A DNA stretch of 64,000 nucleotides. It comes from an uncultured Candidatus Saccharibacteria bacterium (lineage in GTDB: Bacteria; Patescibacteriota; Minisyncoccia; Phycocordibacterales; UBA9973). The notes under the pieces were generated by a model. That model saw only the letters and a program-made list of their open reading frames with translations. It searched no databases and had not been told where the DNA came from. A program made the translations under genes and the position numbers. The DNA is taken from positions 11,762 to 75,761 of the forward strand of contig CAYVZI010000001.1 of the NCBI GenBank assembly GCA_964456475.1, given 5' to 3'. Numbering within the stretch: position 1 is the first letter of the stretch; every line of letters starts with the position of its first letter. This document shows, piece by piece, positions 1 to 63,369 of the stretch.

Positions 1-124
1 CAGATTTACTTAGCCTAACTCCTCGACCAATATTTGTGCAGTACCAGTAGAGTTTCAATATCTAAATCCTAATTTCTAATGTCTAAAACTAGGTTCTTGA
101 AAAAGGAATCTGTATAATTATTAT

Positions 125-1345: not shown

Positions 1346-1346
1346 G

Positions 1347-1456
1347 AGGTGCTAGCTTCTAGGGTCTAGGTTCTGGAAACTAAATTTGAGCATCAAGAAA
1401 AACAGCACACTTGTGCTGTTTTTCTACTAAACCCTAATCCCTAGACCCTAACCCCT
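1347..1456. repeat. CTAGG/TTAGGG-type palindromic element wrapping an intrinsic terminator
   Basis: G-arm ggtgctagcttctagggtctaggttctgg at 1347-1375. Inverse C-arm aaaccctaatccctagaccctaacccc at 1430-1456. Hairpin aaaaacagcacacttgtgctgttttt lies between them. Confidence 0.7.
1397..1426 (+). terminator. Rho-independent terminator after the S41 peptidase gene
   Basis: Stem cagcacac/gtgtgctg followed by a T-run. Confidence 0.75.
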
Positions 1457-1477
1457 CTTTGATGTAATATAAAGCTC

Positions 1478-4541: not shown

Positions 4542-4740
4542 TAAGGTAAATGATGAGGGGGGGGGCACCACTTGATGACAAAGTAGTGTCCTTATTTGTC
4601 TGTGTGGAAAACTATATGGTAATGTCGCACAATATATCTTTCACGACATTATATCCTAATATAATGTGCGTGAAAGATAGCGATTATTTTCCAACGTGAT
4701 TACACATCGGAAAATAATCTTTGGGCCGTAGACCCACACT

Positions 4741-4769
4741 GTCATTCCGGACTTGATACGGAATCCATG
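4741..4769 (+). repeat. hairpin element family GTCATyCCGGA-loop-TCCGGrATCCA, copy A
   Basis: gtcattccggacttgatacggaatccatg. The stem is attccg/cggaat. Confidence 0.7.
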
Positions 4770-4844
4770 AATGTATTCTCCCCTCGATGCCTGCCACAAA
4801 TTTTTTCAAAAAAGTTTTCAAAATTATTTTCTTACAAAAATTGT

Positions 4845-4875
4845 GTCATCCCGGACCCTGATCCGGGATCCATGG
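4845..4875 (+). repeat. hairpin element family, copy B
   Basis: gtcatcccggaccctgatccgggatccatgg. The stem atcccgga/tccgggat shows a compensatory change relative to copy A. Confidence 0.7.
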
Positions 4876-5130
4876 GTATCTGAGTTACATCTATGTGACT
4901 CCTTATATGCCTCTCATATATCAAATGGCCTTAAAACGCATTATACGAGATCAAAAATACGAGTTTAGCATCATTATCGACTTGATCCGATAATCCAGTA
5001 ATTTTCTAGTGTTAAAGCATTTTTTACTAATTAGGGTGAGTTGATGGTAGGTACCGTCAATGCAAGACCTTGAGTATTCTGTAATCAGAAAGCGAACGGT
5101 GTACAGTTCCTGTTAGGAAGTCGACTTCCC

Positions 5131-5175
5131 TTTTTAAAAAATAAAAAACGCCCCATACTTTCGGGGCGTTTTATG
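5131..5175 (-). terminator. intrinsic terminator of the 5193..6461 gene
   Basis: aaaacgccccatactttcggggcgtttt with a T-run on the minus strand. Confidence 0.8.
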
Positions 5176-5192
5176 TTTGATAGGTTTTTATC

Positions 5193-8016: not shown

Positions 8017-8050
8017 AAAGCCGCAATTTTTAATTGCGGCTTTTATTTTG
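8017..8050. terminator. bidirectional intrinsic terminator
   Basis: aaagccgcaatttttaattgcggctttt. Confidence 0.8.
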
Positions 8051-8510
8051 TGAGAACGTCGACAATGTATTTGAAGTGCTTTTCTGATACCGGCATTACA
8101 GAGAGTCTTGAACCTGTCTTAGTCACCTCCATTCCATGCAATTCTCGACTACGTTTGAGGTCGCCGAGATTGACTGGAGTTTTGAACTTTTTTACGAAGG
8201 CCACGTCGACACAGGCCCAGATCGGCAGACCCTCTTTGGCTTTGGGTTCAAAATGCATATCCTTTGGATCAAATTGAGTTGCGTCGGGATGAGGTTTGCT
8301 TGCGACTTTGGCAATGCCGTAAATTCCAGATGGTGATTCAGTTGTGCCAAGTGAATGATAGAAAAGAATGAGATCACCAACGCGCATATTGTCACGCATA
8401 AAATTGCGTGCTTGATAATTGCGAATACCGGTCCAAGCAGTCTTCTTGTCGCGTTTCAAATCATCGATTGAATAGCATGTTCCTTCAGATTTTATAAGCC
8501 AGTAATTCAT
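8043..8510 (-). CDS. EVE (PUA-like) domain protein
   Basis: MNYWLIKSEG...GIRNYQARNFMRDNMRVGDLILFYHS...GIYGIAKV fits the EVE domain. Confidence 0.8.
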   Translation of the reverse strand: MNYWLIKSEGTCYSIDDLKRDKKTAWTGIRNYQARNFMRDNMRVGDLILFYHSLGTTESPSGIYGIAKVASKPHPDATQFDPKDMHFEPKAKEGLPIWACVDVAFVKKFKTPVNLGDLKRSRELHGMEVTKTGSRLSVMPVSEKHFKYIVDVLTK

Positions 8511-8606
8511 AAGCTCAGTATAACGTATTAGGTATCAGGTATAAAGTGCAGCAAATATTAAAATAAAAAGACACCAATTGGTGCCTTTTATAATTTATAA
8601 CTATTT

Positions 8607-12939: not shown

Positions 12940-13506
12940 CTAATACTTACGAATGACTCCGCGGACGATTGCGCGGATTTGCAAATCATTTTCGGGATAC
13001 ATCGGTTTGAAAAGTTTGTTGGCTGGTTCGAGCCAGACCTTGTCCCCTTTCTTTCGAAAATATTTCATAGTGAATTCTCCATCGATTTCGGCAATCACAA
13101 TTTCGCCATCTTTTGCATTGTCGGCACGTTCGGCAATGACCATGTCACCGTCGGCAATGTGTGCTTCAATCATGGATTCACCGTCCACCTCCATGATGAA
13201 AGTCTTGTCCTTTTTTTGTATCAAAAAATTGTCGATGTTTATCGTTGTCTCAAGCACGTCTTCACCTGGTGATGGAAAACCAGCTTTAACGAGACCAAGT
13301 ATTGGGGTTTCGTTAAATGCACTAGCAGGCAAAAGTCGCCCGAGGGAATCCTTGGTGACCATGCCTGCGTCTATGAGCTTATCTACAAGTCGAGCGACTG
13401 CATTCTTGGATTTGAATCCAAAAAGTTTGAGCATTTCCGAATACGTGGGCATTCGGCGTTCTCGGTCATAGAATTTGAGAAGTATGTTTTTGTAATCGTT
13501 TTGCAT
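12940..13506 (-). CDS. lexA: LexA repressor (S24 peptidase)
   Basis: N-terminal wHTH ...MPTYSEMLKLFGFKSKNAVARLVDKLIDAGMV and C-terminal S24 domain GESMIEAHIADGDMVIAE...KYFRKKG. The probable start is MQNDYK rather than the longest ORF. Confidence 0.85.
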   Translation of the reverse strand: MQNDYKNILLKFYDRERRMPTYSEMLKLFGFKSKNAVARLVDKLIDAGMVTKDSLGRLLPASAFNETPILGLVKAGFPSPGEDVLETTINIDNFLIQKKDKTFIMEVDGESMIEAHIADGDMVIAERADNAKDGEIVIAEIDGEFTMKYFRKKGDKVWLEPANKLFKPMYPENDLQIRAIVRGVIRKY

Positions 13507-13564
13507 TGGTTTAATAAATTTCAGAATCAAATGCAATTCGAGGCGCAATTGAGATTGTGACTAA

Positions 13565-13583
13565 AATGTACTACCTGTACATT
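13565..13583. promoter_or_regulatory. palindrome AATGTAC-N5-GTACATT upstream of lexA, a candidate operator
   Basis: Perfect 7-bp arms lying less than 60 bp upstream of the lexA start. Confidence 0.4.
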
Positions 13584-14006: not shown

Positions 14007-14022
14007 GTGAACGTTCGTTCAC
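14007..14022. promoter_or_regulatory. 16-bp perfect palindrome GTGAACGTTCGTTCAC, a Cheo-box-like candidate SOS operator
   Basis: Seen directly. It is the only 16-bp perfect GC-containing palindrome in this intergenic region. It lies about 100 bp upstream of the small ORF and lexA. Confidence 0.45.
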
Positions 14023-19776: not shown

Positions 19777-19808
19777 CTAGCGCCTAAAGCCTAGAGCCTA
19801 ACGCCTAG
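19777..19808. repeat. CTAGG-type element, single C-arm
   Basis: ctagcgcctaaagcctagagcctaacgcctag, preceded by the hairpin cccctccttggtaaaggagggg. Confidence 0.6.
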
Positions 19809-21076
19809 TTCTTCGGCAAATACAACATCGGATCAAGATAAGCGTTCAGCGCTGCCACAGGTGCTGTATACATTTTTCCATTACAAGCTTTACTTGGGAA
19901 ACTCTGAATACTTCCCGCGTCAGCTGCGATGATTGTGAGATGCAAATGCGGGCCAGTAGCGTACCCGGTAGAACCTGAATATCCCACAAGATCACCAGTG
20001 GAAACGCGTGTTCCATCGCCGACTTTTATCAACGACATGTGACCATAAAGGCTCGAGAGACCATTGTCGTATTTTATATAGATCCATTTTCCATATGAGG
20101 CCTTCGGACATGTGAGGTCTGTGTTTCCTGAACCTACGACCACACCAGAAGCCATGGCTTTGAGTGGTGTACCAATAGAAATACCAAAATCGATTCCATT
20201 GTGTGTTCCACTCGAATAGAGGCGTTTTGCGTCAACAGTGCGTCCAAAATGTTGCGTAATTTTTACATTATTAACAGGCCAAATGAGTGGACTGGAACCA
20301 GCCGGAGGGAGTGATTTTGGATCAAGCACGTACCTAAGTTTGGATTCATAATCGCGCAAATCCCCTTCCATTTGATTCTTGAGTGCAATCTTATTGGCAA
20401 GAAGTTTCTGGTATGCTTTCTCGCTGCTTTTTGTTGAAGCAAGGAGTGAATTTTTTTGAGCTTGTGTCTGCACGGTAATCGCACGCTGGTCTTTGAGTTC
20501 TGAATTGAGAGAAATTAATGTTTTCTTTGTTGTTTCTACTTCCGCCTTTTTTGTTTTGAGCACCTGGCCAGTTGTTATGAGTTGATTTGTCCTCTCGCGA
20601 ACTCCTTCTCGAAATGATTCGAGTTCACTTGCATACCGCCACGCATCAGAAAAATTTCGCATTGATGCAAGAGCTCCTACGTCTGAATGATCCTGGGCGT
20701 TCATCTCGCGAATGCTTTTGCCAAGTGCTGTTTTGAGATCATCAATCGACTCGTTTGTATTGGCAATCGTATTTCCAAGCAGGTCGATTTTGGCACTTGT
20801 TGCAGAAATCTTTGCCTCAGAAGCTTTGATGCTTGTGCTGAGTTTTTGTGCTTCAACAGTAAGACGCTTAATCGCATTTGAAAGTGTGTTCTTGTCGTTG
20901 CCAATAACAGTCAACTGATTTTGATACTGAGCAATTTCGGCATTCAGTGCTTCAAGTGCTTTGTTTTGATTGTCGATCTTCGTCTGGAGTTCGGAAGCAG
21001 TATCAGCACGAAGTACTGATGGAATGGCGATCAAGAGAGACAAACAAAAAAGAGTGAGAAATATGTTTCTTCGCAT
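19805..21076 (-). CDS. M23 (LytM) family peptidoglycan endopeptidase with N-terminal coiled-coil (EnvC-like)
   Basis: Signal peptide, a long coiled-coil, and a C-terminal M23 domain ...HNGIDFG...GHMS...HLHL. Confidence 0.85.
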   Translation of the reverse strand: MRRNIFLTLFCLSLLIAIPSVLRADTASELQTKIDNQNKALEALNAEIAQYQNQLTVIGNDKNTLSNAIKRLTVEAQKLSTSIKASEAKISATSAKIDLLGNTIANTNESIDDLKTALGKSIREMNAQDHSDVGALASMRNFSDAWRYASELESFREGVRERTNQLITTGQVLKTKKAEVETTKKTLISLNSELKDQRAITVQTQAQKNSLLASTKSSEKAYQKLLANKIALKNQMEGDLRDYESKLRYVLDPKSLPPAGSSPLIWPVNNVKITQHFGRTVDAKRLYSSGTHNGIDFGISIGTPLKAMASGVVVGSGNTDLTCPKASYGKWIYIKYDNGLSSLYGHMSLIKVGDGTRVSTGDLVGYSGSTGYATGPHLHLTIIAADAGSIQSFPSKACNGKMYTAPVAALNAYLDPMLYLPKN

Positions 21077-23987: not shown

Positions 23988-24046
23988 TCTAGGAATTAGT
24001 GATTAGGGATAAGGGAGTAGTGCCACAAATCCGCAATAAAAAATAA

Positions 24047-34570: not shown

Positions 34571-34679
34571 ACGATATGAAGTTTTAAATGAACAATATGG
34601 TGACTTTTCGAGCCACCATCCTCAGGGGTTCATGACACCCCGAGGACACTGACGCGAAATTCTTCACAACAAACAAAAG

Positions 34680-34712
34680 AAAAGCCCCTGAGAGGGCTTT
34701 TCTTTTGTTTGT
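34680..34712 (+). terminator. intrinsic terminator-like hairpin with no annotated upstream plus-strand gene
   Basis: aaaagcccctgagagggcttttctttt. It is preceded by a second hairpin, cctcagggg...ccccgagg. Confidence 0.5.
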
Positions 34713-34866
34713 TGATTATGTATATAGTCCTAATCTTGTACAACAAAAAGATGCCCGCTCGCTGGGGTAAAATGTGTAAACCAAACAAAATTTGCGACAC
34801 TCTTTTTGAACATATTTAGATAGTAAACCTGGCCAACAATATTGTCAATAGCCGTGTGGAAAACAA

Positions 34867-34901
34867 AAATCCGCCGTAACCAGGTTACGGCGGATTTTTT
34901 G
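34867..34901. terminator. hairpin CCGTAACC-N-GGTTACGG with T-run
   Basis: aaatccgccgtaaccaggttacggcggatttttt. The same core appears at 9383-9405. Confidence 0.55.
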
Positions 34902-35086
34902 TTAGAGCGTAGTATTACGCAGCTGTTTCTTCAGTAGTTTCAGGAGTTGTTGTTTCTTCAGCTGGAGTAGCTTCTACAACTTCTTCGTCAACTACTGGTG
35001 TGTTGTTCTCATCCATGATGTAATTTTCGTTTAACTAGTAAGGCCCATACAGTAACATACTTATTCTTGATATCCTAACTTTTTGA

Positions 35087-36475: not shown

Positions 36476-36543
36476 TTGTTTAATTTACCACAACTCGAGA
36501 ATTTGTGGAATTTTTTAGGATTTAGAGTTTAAGATTTAGAATT

Positions 36544-39524: not shown

Positions 39525-39530
39525 ATTTCA

Positions 39531-39606
39531 GGGTTTAGGTGCTAGGGTTTAGGGGTTAGCAATTCGCACTCACTATACCCTAAACGCTATACCCTATACC
39601 CTAGCT
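39531..39606. repeat. CTAGG/TTAGGG-type palindromic element (G-arm, 16-nt spacer, C-arm)
   Basis: gggtttaggtgctagggtttaggggttagc ... ccctaaacgctataccctataccctagc. Confidence 0.7.
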
Positions 39607-41317: not shown

Positions 41318-42670
41318 TTACCCTATAAACGAGTACAAAAGTGCCAAGGCAAATACCGCCATAACCCCAAAAGCTGTCCAGAGGCCCAGTTTTGAGGCAA
41401 TACCACTCTTGTGTTCACCCAAGACACCCTCTTGGCTCGAGATACGCGCAATCAGAAAAATAAGAGGTACGGCAGCAATACCGTTGAATACAGCAGTAAA
41501 CACAAGTGCTTTGATTGGATCAAAACCTACAAAGTTGAAAATGAGTCCAACGAGCGTTCCAAAAATAATGACGAAATAAAAGTTCTTTGACTGCTTGAAT
41601 TTGTTATACAAACCTTCCTTCCAACTGAATGTCTCCGCCACTGCATATCCAGAGCTTCCCGCAAGAACAGGAATACTTTGCAAGCCGATGCCAATAATAC
41701 CGATTGAAAAAATTATTTTTGCGATAAGCCCAGAATTCGGAAAAGTCTGCACAAGCGGTTCGAGAGCATGCGCCGCATCCGCAGCTGAATTGATATTTGT
41801 AATACCTGCCCTGTTCAATACCACAGCTCCAACCACAATCATGAACCACGCCATAAAGTTTGAAAAAAACATACCAAGTGCATTGTCAGTGCGAAGTCGT
41901 CGCAAGTATGATTTTGTAACTTTTGGAGTTCCGCCATTCTCACCGAGTCGCCCCTCGGCAATCTCATCTTCGACAACATTACTCGTCTGCCAGAAAAAAA
42001 GATACGGAGAAATCGTCGTACCAAAAATTGCAACGATAATGTATAAATATTCTCTACTCCAGACAATATGTGGTGAAAATGTGGCTTGAAGAACCTCACG
42101 CCATGGTACGTCCACAAGAAAAGCTGTGGCCATATAAGCAAACAACGAAACGGCAAGCCATTTCAAAATGCGAATATAATTGCGATACGGTACAAAAACC
42201 TGGAGTACGATAATGATGATTGCATAGAAAATAGCAAGTAATTCAAACGGAATATTTGGAAATAGAAGCTGAGTACTTGCAGACATAGCCCCAAGATTGG
42301 AGCCAATATTGAGCGTGTTTGCACATACAACAAGAAGTACAACTGCATACAAAATCTTTCTTGAGTACTGTTCACGGATAACCTGCGCCAAGCCTTTGCC
42401 GGTCACCGCCCCGATACGCATACATGCTTCTTGTACTGCAGTCATTAGTGGCAGAGTAAAAACCATCGTCCATGGCATCTGAAAACCGAATTGTGCGCCT
42501 GCTTGGGAATAGGTTGCGATTCCTGATGGATCGTCATCAGCAGCACCAGTAACGATTCCCGGACCAAAAATTTTTAAAAAACGTCCAATTTTTTTGAGAG
42601 GCTTACTTTTCGTTATATCACCCTGTTGTTCCCTTTTTTGCTCTAACACTTTATTAGTATCGTTCTGCAT
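41318..42670 (-). CDS. mntH: Nramp-family divalent metal (Mn2+/Fe2+) transporter
   Basis: GPGIVTGAADDDPSGIATYSQAGAQFGF plus an 11-TM pattern. The probable start is MQNDTN, since the ORF-track extension runs into the palindrome array. Confidence 0.85.
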   Translation of the reverse strand: MQNDTNKVLEQKREQQGDITKSKPLKKIGRFLKIFGPGIVTGAADDDPSGIATYSQAGAQFGFQMPWTMVFTLPLMTAVQEACMRIGAVTGKGLAQVIREQYSRKILYAVVLLVVCANTLNIGSNLGAMSASTQLLFPNIPFELLAIFYAIIIIVLQVFVPYRNYIRILKWLAVSLFAYMATAFLVDVPWREVLQATFSPHIVWSREYLYIIVAIFGTTISPYLFFWQTSNVVEDEIAEGRLGENGGTPKVTKSYLRRLRTDNALGMFFSNFMAWFMIVVGAVVLNRAGITNINSAADAAHALEPLVQTFPNSGLIAKIIFSIGIIGIGLQSIPVLAGSSGYAVAETFSWKEGLYNKFKQSKNFYFVIIFGTLVGLIFNFVGFDPIKALVFTAVFNGIAAVPLIFLIARISSQEGVLGEHKSGIASKLGLWTAFGVMAVFALALLYSFIG

Positions 42671-42763
42671 ATATGAAGATAGTATACAGTATTTAGTATA
42701 CGGTATACAGTATTTCACAGTTTTATACTGTATACAAAATACAACATACTGTATACTGTATCC
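42671..42763. promoter_or_regulatory. divergent mntH/corA control region with five or six iterated ATAC-N-GTAT palindromes
   Basis: gtatacagtat at about 42682 and 42703, the variant gtatacggtat at 42696, and atactgtatac at 42725 and 42747-42757. Confidence 0.55.
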
Positions 42764-43675
42764 ATGATTTCACGTTACGCACATCAAGGGCTTACTTGGA
42801 TCGACCTCGAATCACCAACCCGTGATGAGGTTTCCGTTCTTTCAGAAGAATTTGAACTGCATCCGATCATTTCGAGTGAATTACTTGAAACATCTGAACG
42901 CGCAAAAGTGGATTTGTATGAGAATGCAATATATCTCATTCTGCATTTTCCAATTCGCAACCGCACTACAGGACATATCCAGGAGACAGAGATCGACTTT
43001 GTGCTTCTCAAAAATACTCTTATTACCACACACTACGAGCTTGTTGACCCACTTCACGATTTCGCCCGATTATTTGAAGTAGACAGCTTCTTGAGTAGCT
43101 CAAAACTCACTGAACACACCGGGTTCCTATTCTTTACTCAAATCCGCGAATTATATAAGCACACACTCTTTCTAGTTGAAGGATTGACTCACGATATTCG
43201 CGAGATTGAAAAGCAAATCTTCGCAGGTAAAGAAAGCGAGATGGTGATGGAAATATCAAAAGCCAATCGAGAAATAATAGATATCAAACAAGCACTTCGC
43301 GCTCACAAAGAAACGCTAAAATCCTTTGCAGACACATGCATCAAGATATATGGCCAAGATTTTTCTTACTATATCAATATGATTGAAGGTGAATATGCTC
43401 GTATCGAACAGATACTTTCGGAAAATCGCGATATGATTCACGATCTTCGTCGCACAAACGACTCCTTGCTTTCAGTCAAGACAAACAATACCCTTCGCTG
43501 GCTTGCGGCTGTCAACGTAGTACTTATGCCAATCGGTATTATTGCTTGGATTTTTGCTATGCAATCTCGATTCCTCTATCTAGATGAACCACATCAGCTT
43601 CTAACCGCTTTTGGTATAATGATTGCAATACCAGTCATTTTGATTATCTATTTCCGCCGAAAAAAGTGGCTCTAG
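42764..43675 (+). CDS. CorA-like divalent cation transporter (divergent, with FAMQ in place of the canonical YGMN)
   Basis: CorA-like length, a cytoplasmic domain followed by 2 C-terminal TM helices, and a KKW tail. Confidence 0.65.
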   Translation: MISRYAHQGLTWIDLESPTRDEVSVLSEEFELHPIISSELLETSERAKVDLYENAIYLILHFPIRNRTTGHIQETEIDFVLLKNTLITTHYELVDPLHDFARLFEVDSFLSSSKLTEHTGFLFFTQIRELYKHTLFLVEGLTHDIREIEKQIFAGKESEMVMEISKANREIIDIKQALRAHKETLKSFADTCIKIYGQDFSYYINMIEGEYARIEQILSENRDMIHDLRRTNDSLLSVKTNNTLRWLAAVNVVLMPIGIIAWIFAMQSRFLYLDEPHQLLTAFGIMIAIPVILIIYFRRKKWL

Positions 43676-52891: not shown

Positions 52892-52931
52892 AAAATGGGT
52901 TTGCGACAATTGTCGCAAACCCATTTTTTAA
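52892..52931. terminator. bidirectional intrinsic terminator (15-bp stem)
   Basis: aaatgggtttgcgacaattgtcgcaaacccatttttt. Confidence 0.8.
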
Positions 52932-52965
52932 TTAGACATTAAATATTAGTCATTAAAAATTGACT

Positions 52966-54124: not shown

Positions 54125-54475
54125 GGGTCATCCTGAATTTATTTCAGGATCCAGGGCTATAGACAAATCTTTCCATTCTGGATTATGCTCTTGTATCAAA
54201 TTAATCTTCCAATTTCTATGCCATGCTTTTAATTGTTTTTCGCGTTCAATCGCAGAAATTGGATTTTCAGACTCTTCATAATAAACCAGAGTATTAATTT
54301 TATATTGCTTTGTAAATCCGCCTGCAAGACTATGTTTGTGCTCATATATGCGACGGATTAAATCATTTGTAACACCTATGTATAAAGTGCCGTTCTTTTT
54401 GTTTGCCAAAATATAAACATAATAATGTTTATCGTACATACAAATACTGGATCCTGAAATAAATTCAGGATGACC
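54125..54475. mobile_element. 351-bp cassette with perfect 30-bp terminal inverted repeats enclosing a GIY-YIG nuclease gene
   Basis: Left end gggtcatcctgaatttatttcaggatccag (54125-54154). Right end is its exact reverse complement (54446-54475). Each end is itself an 8-bp-stem hairpin. Confidence 0.6.
54128..54439 (-). CDS. small GIY-YIG nuclease superfamily protein (COG2827-like)
   Basis: MYDKHYYVYILANKKNGTLYIGVTNDLIRRIYEHK...REKQLKAWHRNWKINLI. The ORF-track N- and C-terminal residues are translated from the inverted repeats, so the start was trimmed to MYDK. Confidence 0.75.
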   Translation of the reverse strand: MYDKHYYVYILANKKNGTLYIGVTNDLIRRIYEHKHSLAGGFTKQYKINTLVYYEESENPISAIEREKQLKAWHRNWKINLIQEHNPEWKDLSIALDPEINSG

Positions 54476-54488
54476 CAAACACACATAT

Positions 54489-55916: not shown

Positions 55917-55920
55917 AGTA

Positions 55921-55988
55921 GGGTTTAGGTTTTAGGTGTTAGGGTTTAGTAATTCGAATTGTATTTCTAAATCCTAGACCCTAACCCC
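55921..55988. repeat. CTAGG/TTAGGG-type palindromic element
   Basis: gggtttaggttttaggtgttagggtttag-N17-ctaaatcctagaccctaacccc. Confidence 0.7.
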
Positions 55989-55990
55989 TG

Positions 55991-62029: not shown

Positions 62030-62058
62030 GTTCTAGGATCTAGCTTCTAGGTTCTAGT
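62030..62058. repeat. CTAGG-type element arm overlapping the 3' end of the four-helix-bundle gene
   Basis: ggttctaggatctagcttctaggttctag. Confidence 0.65.
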
Positions 62059-62390
62059 TTAATAATCATAACTCGCAACATTTTGCTTACTTCTTCGAGT
62101 AATTCAAGGTGTGACTGAATACTTAATGAATACAAATCTCGACAAAGAAATAATTGAGTCTCAAGCTCTGAAGCGGAGCCATATGATAAGCACAAAAAAT
62201 GTGCGTAATCTTTTCGAGTCTTACGACTTGAACCTTCTGCAATATTCGAGATGATTGAAACACTGGCTCTCCTCATCTGAGACTGAAGAGCATATATTTC
62301 CATTTGAGGAAGTTGAATTTGATAGACAAGCTTAGTAAGATCATAAGCCTTTTTCCAAACTGTCAGATCTTTATACGAATTAAGTGACAT
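62040..62390 (-). CDS. four-helix-bundle protein (23S rRNA intervening-sequence protein family, TIGR02436-like)
   Basis: YKDLTVWKKAYDLTKLVY...LQSQMRRASVSIISNIAEGSSRKTRKDYAHFL..GSASELETQL matches the family consensus. Confidence 0.8.
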   Translation of the reverse strand: MSLNSYKDLTVWKKAYDLTKLVYQIQLPQMEIYALQSQMRRASVSIISNIAEGSSRKTRKDYAHFLCLSYGSASELETQLFLCRDLYSLSIQSHLELLEEVSKMLRVMIIKLEPRS

Positions 62391-62398
62391 TTTGTATT

Positions 62399-62433
62399 CT
62401 CTAGAACCTAGACCCTAGAAACTAGCACCTAGT
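62399..62433. repeat. CTAGG-type element arm just upstream of the four-helix-bundle gene
   Basis: tctagaacctagaccctagaaactagcacctag, inverse to 62030-62058. Confidence 0.65.
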
Positions 62434-62968: not shown

Positions 62969-63077
62969 ATAGAGCTAGTATATTAGTATTTTAAAAAATA
63001 GTAAATCGGGCAATAATCTTGAACACCTATTGACCTTGCGATTTAGTAGAGTATGATACTTTTCAAATCTCATTTGT

Positions 63078-63272
63078 ATGACAACAGCACAAATTAAGAA
63101 TGAGGCCAAACGAACATTTGGCCCAATCAATGGCTACAGCGGAATCGGATTCGAAAACGGCAAAGTTATTGTCTATGTTACAGACCCAAACTCGGTCTGT
63201 GGAAAATCAAAAATTCCGCCCTATCTCTCAGGTATGGTTCAAATTAAAACTGCAAAAAAGAGATCTAAATAA
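63078..63272 (+). CDS. small hypothetical protein
   Basis: 64 aa, followed by a terminator. Confidence 0.4.
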   Translation: MTTAQIKNEAKRTFGPINGYSGIGFENGKVIVYVTDPNSVCGKSKIPPYLSGMVQIKTAKKRSK

Positions 63273-63309
63273 CGATGGGTATTAATCACGTCCCTCACAA
63301 AATTATCTA

Positions 63310-63345
63310 AAAAGCCCCGAATCATTGGGGCTTTTCTATTTTACA
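63310..63345. terminator. bidirectional intrinsic terminator
   Basis: aaagccccgaatcattggggcttt followed by a T-run. Confidence 0.75.
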
Positions 63346-63369
63346 AAGTGAGTGCAATGGTTTCCAAAA

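What the first reader, a model, noticed from the sequence alone, without database searches (positions are those of the whole stretch)
42671..42763. Array of five or six ATAC-N-GTAT palindromes in the 93-bp divergent region between mntH and a CorA-like gene
gtatacagtat occurs at about 42682 and 42703, the variant gtatacggtat at 42696, and atactgtatac at 42725, 42747 and 42752 (the last two overlapping). These fill almost the whole intergenic region shared by two divergently transcribed metal-transporter genes. This is the architecture of a cooperative operator for a metal-sensing repressor. The motif does not match the Fur, Zur, MntR/DtxR, PerR or LexA consensus sequences as I recall them, so it may define an uncharacterised regulator or regulon. 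The longest mntH ORF reads through the array, which argues for the shorter start.
Basis: seen in the sequence. Interest (0 to 1): 0.6.

Follow-up and report, generated by a model that had tools for sequence, protein, structure and literature searches.

The report
Paired heptad-repeat arrays, not metal operator
The "palindromes" between the two metal-transporter genes are one copy of a widespread but still unexplained kind of intergenic DNA: two facing arrays of about five 7-bp repeats. The same design sits next to all sorts of unrelated genes, so it is not a signature of metal regulation.

Summary
ATAC-N-GTAT occurs six times in 64 kb, always in the 93-bp NRAMP/CorA spacer (0.56 expected). The palindrome is a by-product, though. 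The true unit is a 7-bp heptad: five GTATnnn (42682-42716), a 5-nt spacer, then five to six nnnATAC (42722-42763). Syntenic relatives keep the GTAT core (20/20 positions) but not the variable triplets (5-7/15) or the palindromes.

It lies beside unrelated housekeeping genes in every gene orientation. The window holds 11 period-7 arrays and none at periods 5, 6 or 8-12, mostly with other cores (TAGG/CTAG). NRAMP loci of more distant relatives lack the motif. No regulator gene, Fur box or Rfam family was found.

This is a new member (GTAT core, Patescibacteria) of the known, functionally unexplained intergenic heptamer repeats. Facing pairs were already described in Xanthomonas. Here the outermost heptads supply TATACT -10 boxes for two apparently leaderless promoters.

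My best guess (about 0.4) is that a small multimerising protein, like omega or another ribbon-helix-helix protein, binds one heptad per unit. A metal-specific regulon is not supported.

The parts
42682..42716 (+). Left arm: five heptads GTATACA GTATTTA GTATACG GTATACA GTATTTC (GTATnnn, read towards the centre)
   Evidence: Heptad register shown. GTAT run of 5 at period 7. Core identical in orthologues at 20/20 positions, against 5-7/15 for the variable positions.
42717..42721 (.). Central spacer ACAGT. It is 12 nt in L083 and 24 nt in L330.
   Evidence: Length and sequence are not conserved.
42722..42763 (-). Right arm: TTTATAC TGTATAC AAAATAC AACATAC TGTATAC plus a degenerate TGTATCC on the + strand. 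This reads as GTATnnn on the - strand, again towards the centre.
   Evidence: ATAC run of 5 at period 7.
42684..42761 (.). They are by-products of adjacent heptads.
   Evidence: 6 observed against 0.56 expected. Not conserved in L083 or L330.
42752..42757 (+). TATACT, the inferred -10 hexamer of the CorA promoter. It occupies -12..-7, followed by 6 nt and then ATG at 42764 (leaderless geometry).
   Evidence: TAnnnT at -12 in 16 of 67 genes, SD-like motifs in 3 of 67. The outermost heptads read TATACT on both sides in all three lineages. Inference only; no TSS data.
42681..42686 (-). TATACT on the minus strand, the inferred -10 hexamer of the NRAMP promoter, 10 nt before ATG (42670).
   Evidence: Inference only.
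41318..42670 (-). NRAMP-family (MntH-like) divalent metal transporter gene, short start.
   Evidence: Pfam Nramp 1.9e-76. Homologues are 447-452 aa.
42764..43675 (+). CorA-family transporter gene.
   Evidence: Pfam CorA 3.1e-42. Identical protein on contig L001.
8518..8545 (+). Second GTAT-type arm in the window: GTATAAC GTATTAG GTATCAG GTATAAA, upstream of an EVE-domain gene (8043-8510, minus). Its outer heptad gives TATACT at -12. The heptad order resembles the NRAMP-side arm of L330.

Best explanation
What it is (well supported): one copy of a generic intergenic element made of two facing arrays of about five 7-bp units (GTATnnn x5, spacer, nnnATAC x5-6). It belongs to the long-known but unexplained class of intergenic tandem heptamer repeats. 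The ATAC-N-GTAT palindromes are incidental.

How it most likely works (inferred): each heptad core is one binding unit for a small DNA-binding protein that multimerises along the array. The only known proteins that read DNA in a 7-bp register are ribbon-helix-helix (RHH) dimers such as plasmid omega. NikR's RHH domain reads a GTATGAT 7-mer. In this organism most genes look leaderless, and the outermost heptad on each side is the TATACT -10 hexamer of the NRAMP and CorA promoters. Coating of the arms would therefore occlude or modulate both promoters together.

The protein would be a general, nucleoid-associated or global factor, not a metal sensor dedicated to these genes.
For: Shown:
- Strict period 7. 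The window has 11 arrays of at least 4 copies at period 7 and none at periods 5, 6 or 8-12, and none in shuffles.
- The core is constrained and the rest is free. Window against L083 gives 20/20 core and 7/15 variable positions (Fisher p = 2.7e-4). Against L330 it gives 5/15 variable (p = 1.6e-5). L083 and L330 were found through protein homology, not through the motif.
- The same architecture is present in at least 120 metagenome contigs, most often 5+5 heptads, with spacers from 0 to 35 nt and no preferred phase.
- Variable triplets of the two arms do not co-vary position by position. Mirror identity is 0.50 against 0.498 after shuffling. Best-diagonal identity is 0.628 against 0.634. So heptads behave as independent units rather than as a specific helix.
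- Polarity is fixed. In 13 of 15 independent inverted pairs with various cores, the G-rich strand reads inward (p = 0.007). The reversed GTAT arrangement gave only 1 trivial hit in viral contigs, against 5 for the forward one.
- Outermost heptads read TATACT towards the adjacent gene in 6 of 6 cases. CorA has it at -12, the position where 16 of 67 genes of the window carry TAnnnT.

From the literature:
- One omega dimer binds one WATCACW heptad. At least 4 contiguous heptads are needed, and the arrays overlap promoters (PMC9499535).
- NikR half-sites are GTATGAT-N13/14-ATCATAC, with the same core and polarity (PMC545781 and PMC7055735).
- An RHH protein can act as a genome-wide nucleoid protein: CdbA (PMC7156744).
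Against: - No binding protein was identified. No RHH or other candidate was found among the 20 window ORFs scanned, and none recurs next to arrays elsewhere.
- One small genome would need binders for several cores (GTAT, TAGG/CTAG, CTAA, ATTA), or one protein with loose specificity.
- Arrays also occur between convergent genes, where there is no promoter: 13 of about 90 classified cases, using crude gene calls.
- Arrays come and go between close relatives. The dnaB-recR spacer is 82 bp here and 11 bp in L083.
- The region folds into a strong hairpin. As RNA it gives -33.2 kcal/mol (z = -7.1). As DNA it gives -17.2 kcal/mol (z = -5.8). The outermost heptad has changed in concert on both arms between lineages (ACA/TGT against AAG/CTT).
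- Promoter and leaderless assignments are inferred from geometry only. The consensus promoter scan found nothing.
Confidence: 0.4

Rival explanations
1. REP/REPIN- or MITE-like palindromic element. The double array is a dispersed, possibly mobile or self-propagating imperfect palindrome. Its effect comes from hairpin or cruciform formation in DNA under divergent transcription, or in read-through RNA, not from heptad-wise protein reading.
For: - Both arms of an array always share one core, while cores differ between arrays.
- Folding is strong: z = -3.4 to -7.1 for four window arrays and for L083.
- Real arrays fold slightly better than heptad-permuted versions (-26.6 against -25.2 kcal/mol, p = 1.6e-4).
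- Copies at different loci resemble each other. The three TAGG arrays align in both orientations with a shared AATTCG centre. The 8518 arm has the heptad order of the L330 NRAMP arm.
- There is presence/absence polymorphism.
- A 23S_rRNA_IVP gene sits between inverted CTAG arms.
- Arrays occur in all gene orientations.
Against: - There is no position-specific complementarity of the variable triplets.
- Spacers reach 35 nt, or contain a complete terminator.
- Single arms without a partner exist.
- Arrays within one contig share heptad vocabulary but not order or spacer, unlike MITE copies.
- Selection on only 4 of 7 positions in situ is not what a helix or a decaying mobile element predicts.
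- No transposase or RAYT was seen.
- If both genes here are leaderless, the arms are not co-transcribed.
Confidence: 0.22
2. One reading: a cooperative operator for a metal-sensing repressor (a new regulator or regulon) that co-regulates the NRAMP and CorA genes.
For: - The array covers both inferred -10 boxes of two metal-transporter genes.
- It is conserved in three syntenic lineages.
- NikR, a metal-sensing RHH protein, reads GTATGAT/ATCATAC half-sites of the same polarity.
- The exact motif is unique in this window.
Against: - The same element class flanks unrelated genes everywhere it was sampled.
- The other GTAT arm in the window precedes an EVE-domain gene.
- L333 keeps the NRAMP/CorA-like synteny but has no GTAT heptads. 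L082, L334 and L336 have none either.
- Arm spacing is 5, 12 and 24 nt in the three lineages, which is incompatible with a fixed-geometry sensor such as NikR.
- There is no Fur-type box.
- No regulator gene was found in the ORFs scanned.
Confidence: 0.08
3. Non-adaptive simple-sequence repeat. The arrays are products of 7-bp replication slippage in a lineage prone to it, tolerated in intergenic DNA, with only the outer -10-like heptads under selection.
For: - Heptamer repeats are the most abundant intergenic tandem repeats across prokaryotes, and no function is known (PMC6344855). A polymerase-slippage origin has been proposed (PMC4692102).
- Copy number and spacer differ between relatives, and arrays appear and disappear.
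- Relatives at 75-80% identity have none.
Against: - Slippage copies whole heptads and drift hits all positions. The observed pattern of 20/20 core against 5-7/15 variable between orthologues is non-neutral.
- The preferred 5+5 anatomy, the fixed inward polarity and the pairing of arms with one shared core are unexplained by slippage.
Confidence: 0.1
4. RNA-level element. The nnnAUAC arm is a G-poor 5' leader that promotes or regulates Shine-Dalgarno-independent translation by binding S1 or cold-shock-type proteins, as proposed for the TAACTGA repeats of Beggiatoaceae.
For: - Arrays end 1-14 nt before start codons with no SD in low-GC contigs.
- The window has almost no SD motifs.
- TAACTGA repeats most often end 1 nt before start codons of unrelated genes that lack an RBS (PMC4679880).
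- Some TAGG-type arms abut start codons of apparently operon-internal genes with no -10.
Against: - For CorA and the EVE gene, the -10 hexamer at -12 implies that the arm is upstream of the transcript.
- In the 1346-1477 array a terminator separates the arms.
- Arrays also follow stop codons and lie between convergent genes.
- No canonical upstream promoter is detectable.
Confidence: 0.1

Closest known systems
Intergenic tandem heptamer repeats of prokaryotes (cyanobacterial STRR; the survey in Mori et al. 2018, PMC6344855)
   Same: The unit is 7 bp, the location is intergenic, a few copies occur per array, and the repeats sit next to unrelated genes. [quoted passage not shown]
   Different: The core here is GTAT, the host is a Patescibacterium, and the arrays come as a facing pair that overlaps two leaderless-type promoters.
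Xanthomonas GGGAATC and Nostoc GGGGAYT heptamer repeats (Rehm et al. 2015, PMC4692102)
   Same: - Conserved core plus variable positions (positions 1-4 and 6).
- A preference for about 4 units.
- 70-75 pairs per genome in convergent orientation on opposite strands.
- The G-rich strand is antisense upstream of ORFs and sense after stop codons.
- Positions are conserved between species but lengths are not.
   Different: Those repeats are G-tracts interpreted as G-quadruplex formers. GTATnnn cannot form G4, so G4 cannot be the shared explanation. The Xanthomonas repeats are under-represented between divergent genes, whereas the GTAT pairs are not (28 of about 90).
TAACTGA direct repeats of Beggiatoaceae, Cyanobacteria and Bacteroidetes (MacGregor 2015, PMC4679880)
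   Same: Heptamer arrays of 2-6 copies end a few nt before start codons. The intergenic regions lack an RBS, and the downstream genes are functionally unrelated and include ribosomal proteins.
   Different: Those are almost always single direct arrays oriented towards the start codon, with 1 inverted case in 170. Here the arrays are paired and also lie next to stop codons.
Omega (ParB of pSM19035) heptad operators and centromeres
   Same: Arrays of contiguous 7-bp non-palindromic units in direct and inverted orientation overlap promoters. One RHH dimer binds per heptad, and at least 4 heptads are needed (PMC9499535).
   Different: The consensus WATCACW is not present here. Omega sites are contiguous and lack a spacer. 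The context is a plasmid with an adjacent omega gene. No RHH gene was found here. An Acidobacteriota MAG (L070) does carry omega-like AGTGATG/TATCACT paired arrays in a chromosomal ribF intergenic region.
NikR operator (GTATGAT-N13/14-ATCATAC)
   Same: The half-site is a 7-mer with a GTAT core, in the same inward polarity. It is read by an RHH domain of a metal sensor (PMC545781 and PMC7055735).
   Different: The NikR operator has one half-site per side at a fixed spacing. Here there are five per side, with spacing 5+7k that differs between orthologues (5, 12, 24). The targets are not nickel importers, and no nikR gene was seen.
REP/BIME/REPIN extragenic palindromes
   Same: These are dispersed, lineage-specific intergenic imperfect palindromes with hairpin potential. 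They show presence/absence between relatives and occur beside unrelated genes.
   Different: REPs have no internal 7-bp periodicity, are usually at 3' ends of genes, and are linked to RAYT transposases. None of these points was shown here.

Membership tests
Paired convergent intergenic heptamer repeats (Xanthomonas type) | Tandem unit of exactly 7 bp | tested here: met
   Register shown. Period-7 arrays number 11 in the window, against 0 at periods 5, 6 and 8-12.
Paired convergent intergenic heptamer repeats (Xanthomonas type) | Conserved core positions plus variable positions within the unit | tested here: met
   GTAT is 96-99% conserved in 112 arrays, although this is partly by ascertainment, and positions 5-7 are variable. 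The unbiased orthologue comparison gives 20/20 against 5-7/15.
Paired convergent intergenic heptamer repeats (Xanthomonas type) | Two short arrays on opposite strands in convergent orientation, close together | tested here: met
   42682-42716 and 42722-42763. The inward polarity holds in 13 of 15 independent pairs.
Paired convergent intergenic heptamer repeats (Xanthomonas type) | G-tracts able to form a G-quadruplex | tested here: not met
   GTATnnn heptads have no G runs. The TAGGGTT arrays elsewhere in the window do.
Fur-family (Fur/Zur/PerR/Mur) operator | 7-1-7 inverted repeat resembling TGATAATnATTATCA | tested here: not met
   There is no match within 3 mismatches in the spacer. The window total is 7, against 7.9 expected.
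Metal-regulon operator (any family) | The same motif upstream of orthologous or other metal-homeostasis genes in related genomes | tested here: not met
   There are no ATACNGTAT clusters in 80 NRAMP loci. None was found in L082, L333, L334 or L336. Flanking genes of 126 GTAT arrays are unrelated to metals.
Metal-regulon operator (any family) | A cognate metal-sensing regulator encoded in the genome | not testable with these tools
   Only 64 kb of the genome is available. Twenty ORFs were scanned with Pfam and none was a DtxR, Fur, ArsR, NikR or other RHH protein.
NikR operator | Two inverted 6-7 bp half-sites (GTATGA(T) type) at a fixed spacing of N16 (N13/14) | tested here: not met
   Core and polarity match, but possible spacings are 5+7k nt here, 12+7k in L083 and 24+7k in L330.
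Omega-type RHH heptad operator | At least 4 contiguous 7-bp units overlapping a promoter | tested here: met
   There are five contiguous heptads per arm. The overlap with the -10 hexamers is inferred.
Omega-type RHH heptad operator | Heptad consensus WATCACW | tested here: not met
   The heptads are GTATnnn.
Omega-type RHH heptad operator | RHH protein that binds one dimer per heptad | not testable with these tools
   No RHH ORF was found in the window ORFs scanned. Binding cannot be tested in silico.
REP/REPIN elements | Imperfect palindrome with hairpin potential, in many dispersed copies | tested here: inconclusive
   The hairpin is strong. Families exist by core (2 GTAT and at least 5 TAGG/CTAG arrays in the window), but the copies are divergent and the arms are not complementary position by position.
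REP/REPIN elements | Associated RAYT (Y1) transposase | not tested
   No transposase was noticed in the window or in the loci inspected. No systematic search was made.
Known structured RNA (e.g. Mn riboswitch) | Match to an Rfam covariance model | tested here: not met
   There are no Rfam hits at gathering threshold in the whole window.

The most novel reading that the evidence does not exclude
Facing pairs of heptad arrays (GTAT, TAGG, GTAA, GTGA, GAAT and other cores) could be one widespread, unrecognised class of cis-element. It would be read, one heptad per subunit, by a family of small (RHH-like) proteins with lineage-specific core preference. These proteins would mark promoters and gene boundaries in Patescibacteria and several other phyla. 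That would give a mechanism for the unexplained 'prime-number' 7-bp periodicity of prokaryotic intergenic DNA, and would show that G-quadruplex formation is not its basis.
Probability: 0.17. Interest if true: 0.75.

Novelty: new member of a known kind. Interest (0 to 1): 0.4.

Why it matters
As a candidate metal regulon the finding does not hold up, so it should not seed regulon predictions.

Its value lies elsewhere. The window is an unusually clean example of the unexplained intergenic heptamer repeats, with 11 arrays in 64 kb and none at any other period. The GTAT family supplies three constraints that any explanation must meet:
- Selection acts on a 4-nt core, not on the whole unit and not on arm complementarity.
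- The polarity is fixed and inward, with a preferred 5+5 anatomy.
- The design does not depend on G-tracts.

The overlap with -10 boxes in an apparently leaderless, Shine-Dalgarno-poor Patescibacterium offers a concrete experimental handle: pull-down with (GTATnnn)5, TSS mapping and reporter assays.

Tried and rejected
1. Three-frame stop-codon insulators. Arms after stop codons do not carry more stops than arms before start codons (mean 1.49 against 1.66 frames, and only 7 of 51 cover all three frames). Rejected.
2. A specific hairpin with co-varying arms. Mirror identity of the variable triplets equals the shuffled value. Only a weak energy excess over heptad-permuted arrays was seen. Not supported as the selected feature.
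3. Known RNA family or riboswitch: none.
4. Canonical sigma-70 promoter or intrinsic terminator in 42500-42900: none.
5. Fur-type box: none.
6. LexA. An S24/LexA-like gene exists at 12940-13548, but its upstream palindrome is TGTAC-N5-GTACA, a different motif.
7. Regulator hunt among 20 small or unannotated ORFs: no DNA-binding family other than the S24 protein.
8. The direct pattern (GTATN3)x5 in viral contigs is swamped by satellites, so the inverted 3+3 pattern was used instead.
Close relatives came from exact-protein look-ups.
10. P0004 (81% identity) has no DNA on file.
11. No phase preference (mod 7) was seen between arrays and start codons.
12. No conserved spacer motif exists across GTAT arrays. 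A subset shares GGGGA-A-rich mini-hairpins.
13. Target-site duplications at the dnaB-recR array could not be defined.
Full report
**1. Observation.**
The 93-bp spacer 42671-42763 separates two divergent genes. One is an NRAMP-family gene (41318-42670, minus strand; Pfam Nramp 1.9e-76). The other is a CorA-family gene (42764-43675, plus strand; Pfam CorA 3.1e-42). The 9-mer ATACNGTAT occurs six times in the 64-kb window, at 42684, 42698, 42705, 42725, 42746 and 42753. All six lie in this spacer. Dinucleotide shuffles expect 0.56 copies, with at most 3 in 100 shuffles. The short NRAMP start (ATG at 42670) agrees with homologues of 447-452 aa aligned over 100% of the query. The best NRAMP homologues are named Patescibacteria, Paceibacterota or Parcubacteria by their sources. 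The window has 40.6% G+C.

**2. The real unit is a heptad.**
When the spacer is written in steps of 7, it resolves into two arms:
- Left arm: GTATACA GTATTTA GTATACG GTATACA GTATTTC (42682-42716).
- Spacer: ACAGT.
- Right arm: TTTATAC TGTATAC AAAATAC AACATAC TGTATAC TGTATCC (42722-42763).

These are two facing arrays of GTATnnn, each read towards the centre. A 'palindrome' ATAC-N-GTAT appears only where a heptad happens to read GTATAC-N before the next GTAT.

Exact-protein look-ups recovered syntenic NRAMP/CorA loci from relatives:
- L083/L084 (NRAMP 86% identical): GTATAAG GTATTAA GTATTAG GTATCAA GTATTTT, a 12-nt spacer, then TTTATAC TTTATAC GTTATAC CTTATAC.
- L330/L331 (86% identical): the same left arm except for its fifth heptad, and a 24-nt spacer.
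- L332 (94% identical): identical to the window over the 40 nt available.

The palindromes are gone in L083 and L330, but GTAT recurs every 7 bp. Between the window and L083, the left-arm core is identical at 20/20 positions and the variable positions at 7/15 (Fisher p = 2.7e-4). Against L330 the variable positions match at 5/15 (p = 1.6e-5). These loci were found by protein identity, so the comparison is free of motif ascertainment. It shows selection on the 4-nt core of every heptad.

**3. The architecture is generic.**
The contigs have 31-67% G+C and come from soil, groundwater, sediment and gut.

After extension, the commonest anatomy is 5 heptads on each arm. Spacers range from 0 to 35 nt without a preferred length. 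With crude ORF calls, the arrays fill the intergenic space to within about 1-20 nt of the coding regions. They occur between divergent (28), co-directional (49) and convergent (13) genes.

Of 189 flanking proteins, 157 are singletons by all-against-all BLASTP. The only NRAMP or CorA among them are those of the window and L083. A Pfam census of the 107 genes that have an array at their 5' end found 149 families. The commonest were HSP70 (3), MreB (3) and ribosomal L10 (2), followed by IF-1, tRNA synthetases, Obg and others.

Conversely, NRAMP loci of relatives lack the motif:
- 80 loci from named genomes (64% identity or less) have no ATACNGTAT cluster.
- L082 (80%), L334 (77%) and L336 (76%) have no array upstream of NRAMP and no array of at least 4 copies in 8-21 kb.
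- L333 (78%) keeps the NRAMP/CorA-like synteny. Its 181-bp spacer has no GTAT heptads but has three ATTAGAC-like heptads.

**4. The window is full of such arrays.**
Arrays of at least 4 copies of a 4-mer at a fixed period number 11 at period 7. There are none at periods 5, 6 and 8-12, and none in Markov shuffles. All are intergenic or at gene edges:
- Facing pairs TAGGnnn...nnnCCTA at 1346-1477 (the arms flank an intrinsic terminator), at 39525-39606 (dnaB to recR) and at 55917-55990.
- Inverted CTAG arms on either side of a 23S_rRNA_IVP gene (62032-62059 and 62401-62432).
- Single arms at 62, 8518 (GTAT type, upstream of an EVE-domain gene), 19782, 23988, 36514 and 52931.

The three TAGG pairs align with each other in both orientations and share an AATTCG centre. 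The dnaB-recR array is absent from L083, where that spacer is 11 bp.

In sequence not selected for GTAT arrays, further inverted heptad pairs have other cores (AGTAA, AGTGA, GAAT, GAACA, TTAG). In 13 of 15 pairs the G-richer strand reads inward (binomial p = 0.007). The reversed GTAT arrangement found only one trivial (GTATACN)n satellite in viral contigs, against five hits for the forward arrangement.

**5. Relation to what is known.**

In Xanthomonas, GGGAATC heptamers have conserved positions 1-4 and 6, and a preference for four units. [quoted passage not shown] The G-strand is antisense upstream of ORFs and sense after stop codons (PMC4692102). This is the same anatomy and polarity as found here. 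That paper explains the repeats by G-quadruplexes, which GTATnnn cannot form.

TAACTGA repeats of Beggiatoaceae end a few nt before start codons of unrelated genes that lack an RBS (PMC4679880). Heptamer repeats near start codons in Nostoc affect reporter expression, through an unidentified partner (bioRxiv 10.1101/2022.06.06.494920).

The only proteins known to read DNA in a 7-bp register are ribbon-helix-helix (RHH) dimers. Omega binds one WATCACW heptad per dimer, needs at least 4 contiguous heptads and acts at promoters (PMC9499535). NikR half-sites are the 7-mers GTATGAT-N13/14-ATCATAC. An RHH protein can also act as a genome-wide nucleoid protein (CdbA).

**6. Local function: promoters.**
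Only 3 of 67 ORF starts in the window have an SD-like motif. TAnnnT peaks sharply at -12, in 16 genes, against about 3.7 at other offsets. This is the geometry of a -10 hexamer, 6 nt, then ATG, which is typical of leaderless mRNAs.

CorA fits this exactly: TATACT at 42752-42757, then GTATCC, then ATG. In all three lineages the outermost heptad on both sides reads TATACT towards the adjacent gene (6 of 6), lying 6-10 nt before the ATG. The GTAT arm at 8518 likewise provides TATACT at -12 of the EVE gene. Among 35 low-GC metagenome cases with an ATG within 16 nt of an array, TAnnnT is enriched at -14 to -12 (16 cases, against about 1.8 per offset elsewhere).

These assignments are inferences. 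The consensus promoter/terminator scan finds nothing in 42500-42900. No Rfam family matches anywhere in the window.

**7. Mechanism: tests made.**
- Hairpin. The spacer folds strongly. As RNA it gives -33.2 kcal/mol (z = -7.1), and as DNA -17.2 kcal/mol (z = -5.8). Other arrays give z = -3.4 to -5.5. The outermost heptad has changed in concert on both arms between lineages (ACA/TGT against AAG/CTT). Across 112 arrays, however, the variable triplets of mirrored heptads are no more alike than after shuffling heptad order. Mirror identity is 0.50 against 0.498, and best-diagonal identity is 0.628 against 0.634. Real arrays fold only 1.4 kcal/mol better than heptad-permuted ones (p = 1.6e-4). The arms therefore share a heptad vocabulary, not a specific helix.
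- Three-frame stop arrays: rejected.
- Fur-type box: absent.
- Regulator. None was found among 20 ORFs scanned. The S24/LexA-like gene at 12940-13548 has a different upstream palindrome.
- Mobile-element features. There are resemblances between copies at different loci, a presence/absence polymorphism, and a small gene lying between arms. But arrays within one contig share neither heptad order nor spacer, and no transposase was seen.

**8. Conclusion.**
What the element is can be stated with good confidence. It is a GTAT-core member, in a Patescibacterium, of the known class of intergenic heptamer repeats in its paired convergent form. It is not tied to metal genes.

How it works is not established. 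I commit, at about 0.4, to heptad-wise binding of a small multimerising protein (RHH/omega-like, acting globally). At this locus that protein would cover both -10 boxes. The reasons are the core-only selection, the independence of the heptads, the typical count of at least 4-5 units, the fixed polarity and the 7-bp footprint precedent.

The rival explanations and my confidence in each are:
- A REP/REPIN-like structural or mobile palindrome (0.22).
- Neutral slippage (0.10).
- An RNA-leader or translation element (0.10).

The main weaknesses of the favoured model are the several cores in one small genome, the arrays between convergent genes, the rapid gain and loss, and the lack of any candidate protein.

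**9. Verdict.**
The finding is a new member of a known kind, of moderate interest, because it adds non-G4, polarity and core-selection constraints to an old open puzzle.

Noticed in passing
window, all 67 ORF starts (e.g. 125, 3250, 19805, 38127, 42764, 46874): There are almost no Shine-Dalgarno motifs (3 of 67). TAnnnT peaks sharply at -12 (16 of 67 genes), giving a -10 hexamer, 6 nt, then ATG. The organism appears to use leaderless mRNAs widely.
   Followed up: partly
window 1346-1477, 39525-39606, 55917-55990: Three facing double arrays of TAGGnnn ... nnnCCTA heptads (consensus TAGGGTT, the same as the plant telomere unit TTTAGGG). They align with each other, two share an AATTCG centre, and the first encloses an intrinsic terminator.
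   Followed up: partly
window 62032-62059 and 62401-62432, flanking 62040-62390: A 23S_rRNA_IVP-family gene (Pfam 4.3e-31) lies between inverted CTAG heptad arms, as if it were cargo or an insertion in the spacer of a double array.
   Followed up: no
window 39525-39606 compared with L083 7622-7632: The dnaB-recR spacer is 82 bp and holds a heptad double array in the window. In a relative with 86% NRAMP identity it is 11 bp (TTCCAGCAATT). Arrays are gained or lost quickly.
   Followed up: partly
window 62-96, 8518-8545, 19782-19809, 23988-24022, 36514-36541, 52931-52965: Single heptad arms with cores CTAA, GTAT, GCCTA, TTAG, TTAG and ATTA. All are intergenic, and several lie next to intrinsic terminators.
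   Followed up: partly
window 12940-13548 (-), 13567-13581, 14009-14020: A LexA-like S24 peptidase ORF (Pfam Peptidase_S24 3e-26; the N-terminal domain is not recognised) is preceded by the palindrome TGTAC-N5-GTACA. A Cheo-box-like GAACGAACGTTC lies about 450 bp further upstream.
   Followed up: no
L070 10915-11000 (Pyrinomonadaceae MAG): A facing array AGTGATG x5 ... TATCACT x4, matching the omega WATCACW heptad, lies in a chromosomal intergenic region between a ribF-like gene and a metallo-beta-lactamase-fold gene.
   Followed up: partly
L333 4294-4474: A relative at 78% NRAMP identity keeps the NRAMP/CorA-like divergent pair. Its 181-bp spacer has no GTAT heptads but has ATTAGAC ATTAAGC CTTAGAC next to the CorA-like start. 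This is a different heptad family at the same place.
   Followed up: no
window 54128-54484 (-): A small GIY-YIG nuclease-family gene is wedged between dnaJ and gatB.
   Followed up: no
L229, L263, L240, L237, L226, L083 spacers: A subset of GTAT double arrays shares a GGGGA-A-rich mini-hairpin in the spacer (e.g. GGGGATAAAACCC). L232, L267 and L318 share one identical 31-nt spacer.
   Followed up: no
window 4542-5192, 34571-35086, 62969-63369: Long intergenic regions (400-650 bp) have no ORF of 70 aa or more and no Rfam hit. The one at 4542 begins with a G9 run.
   Followed up: no
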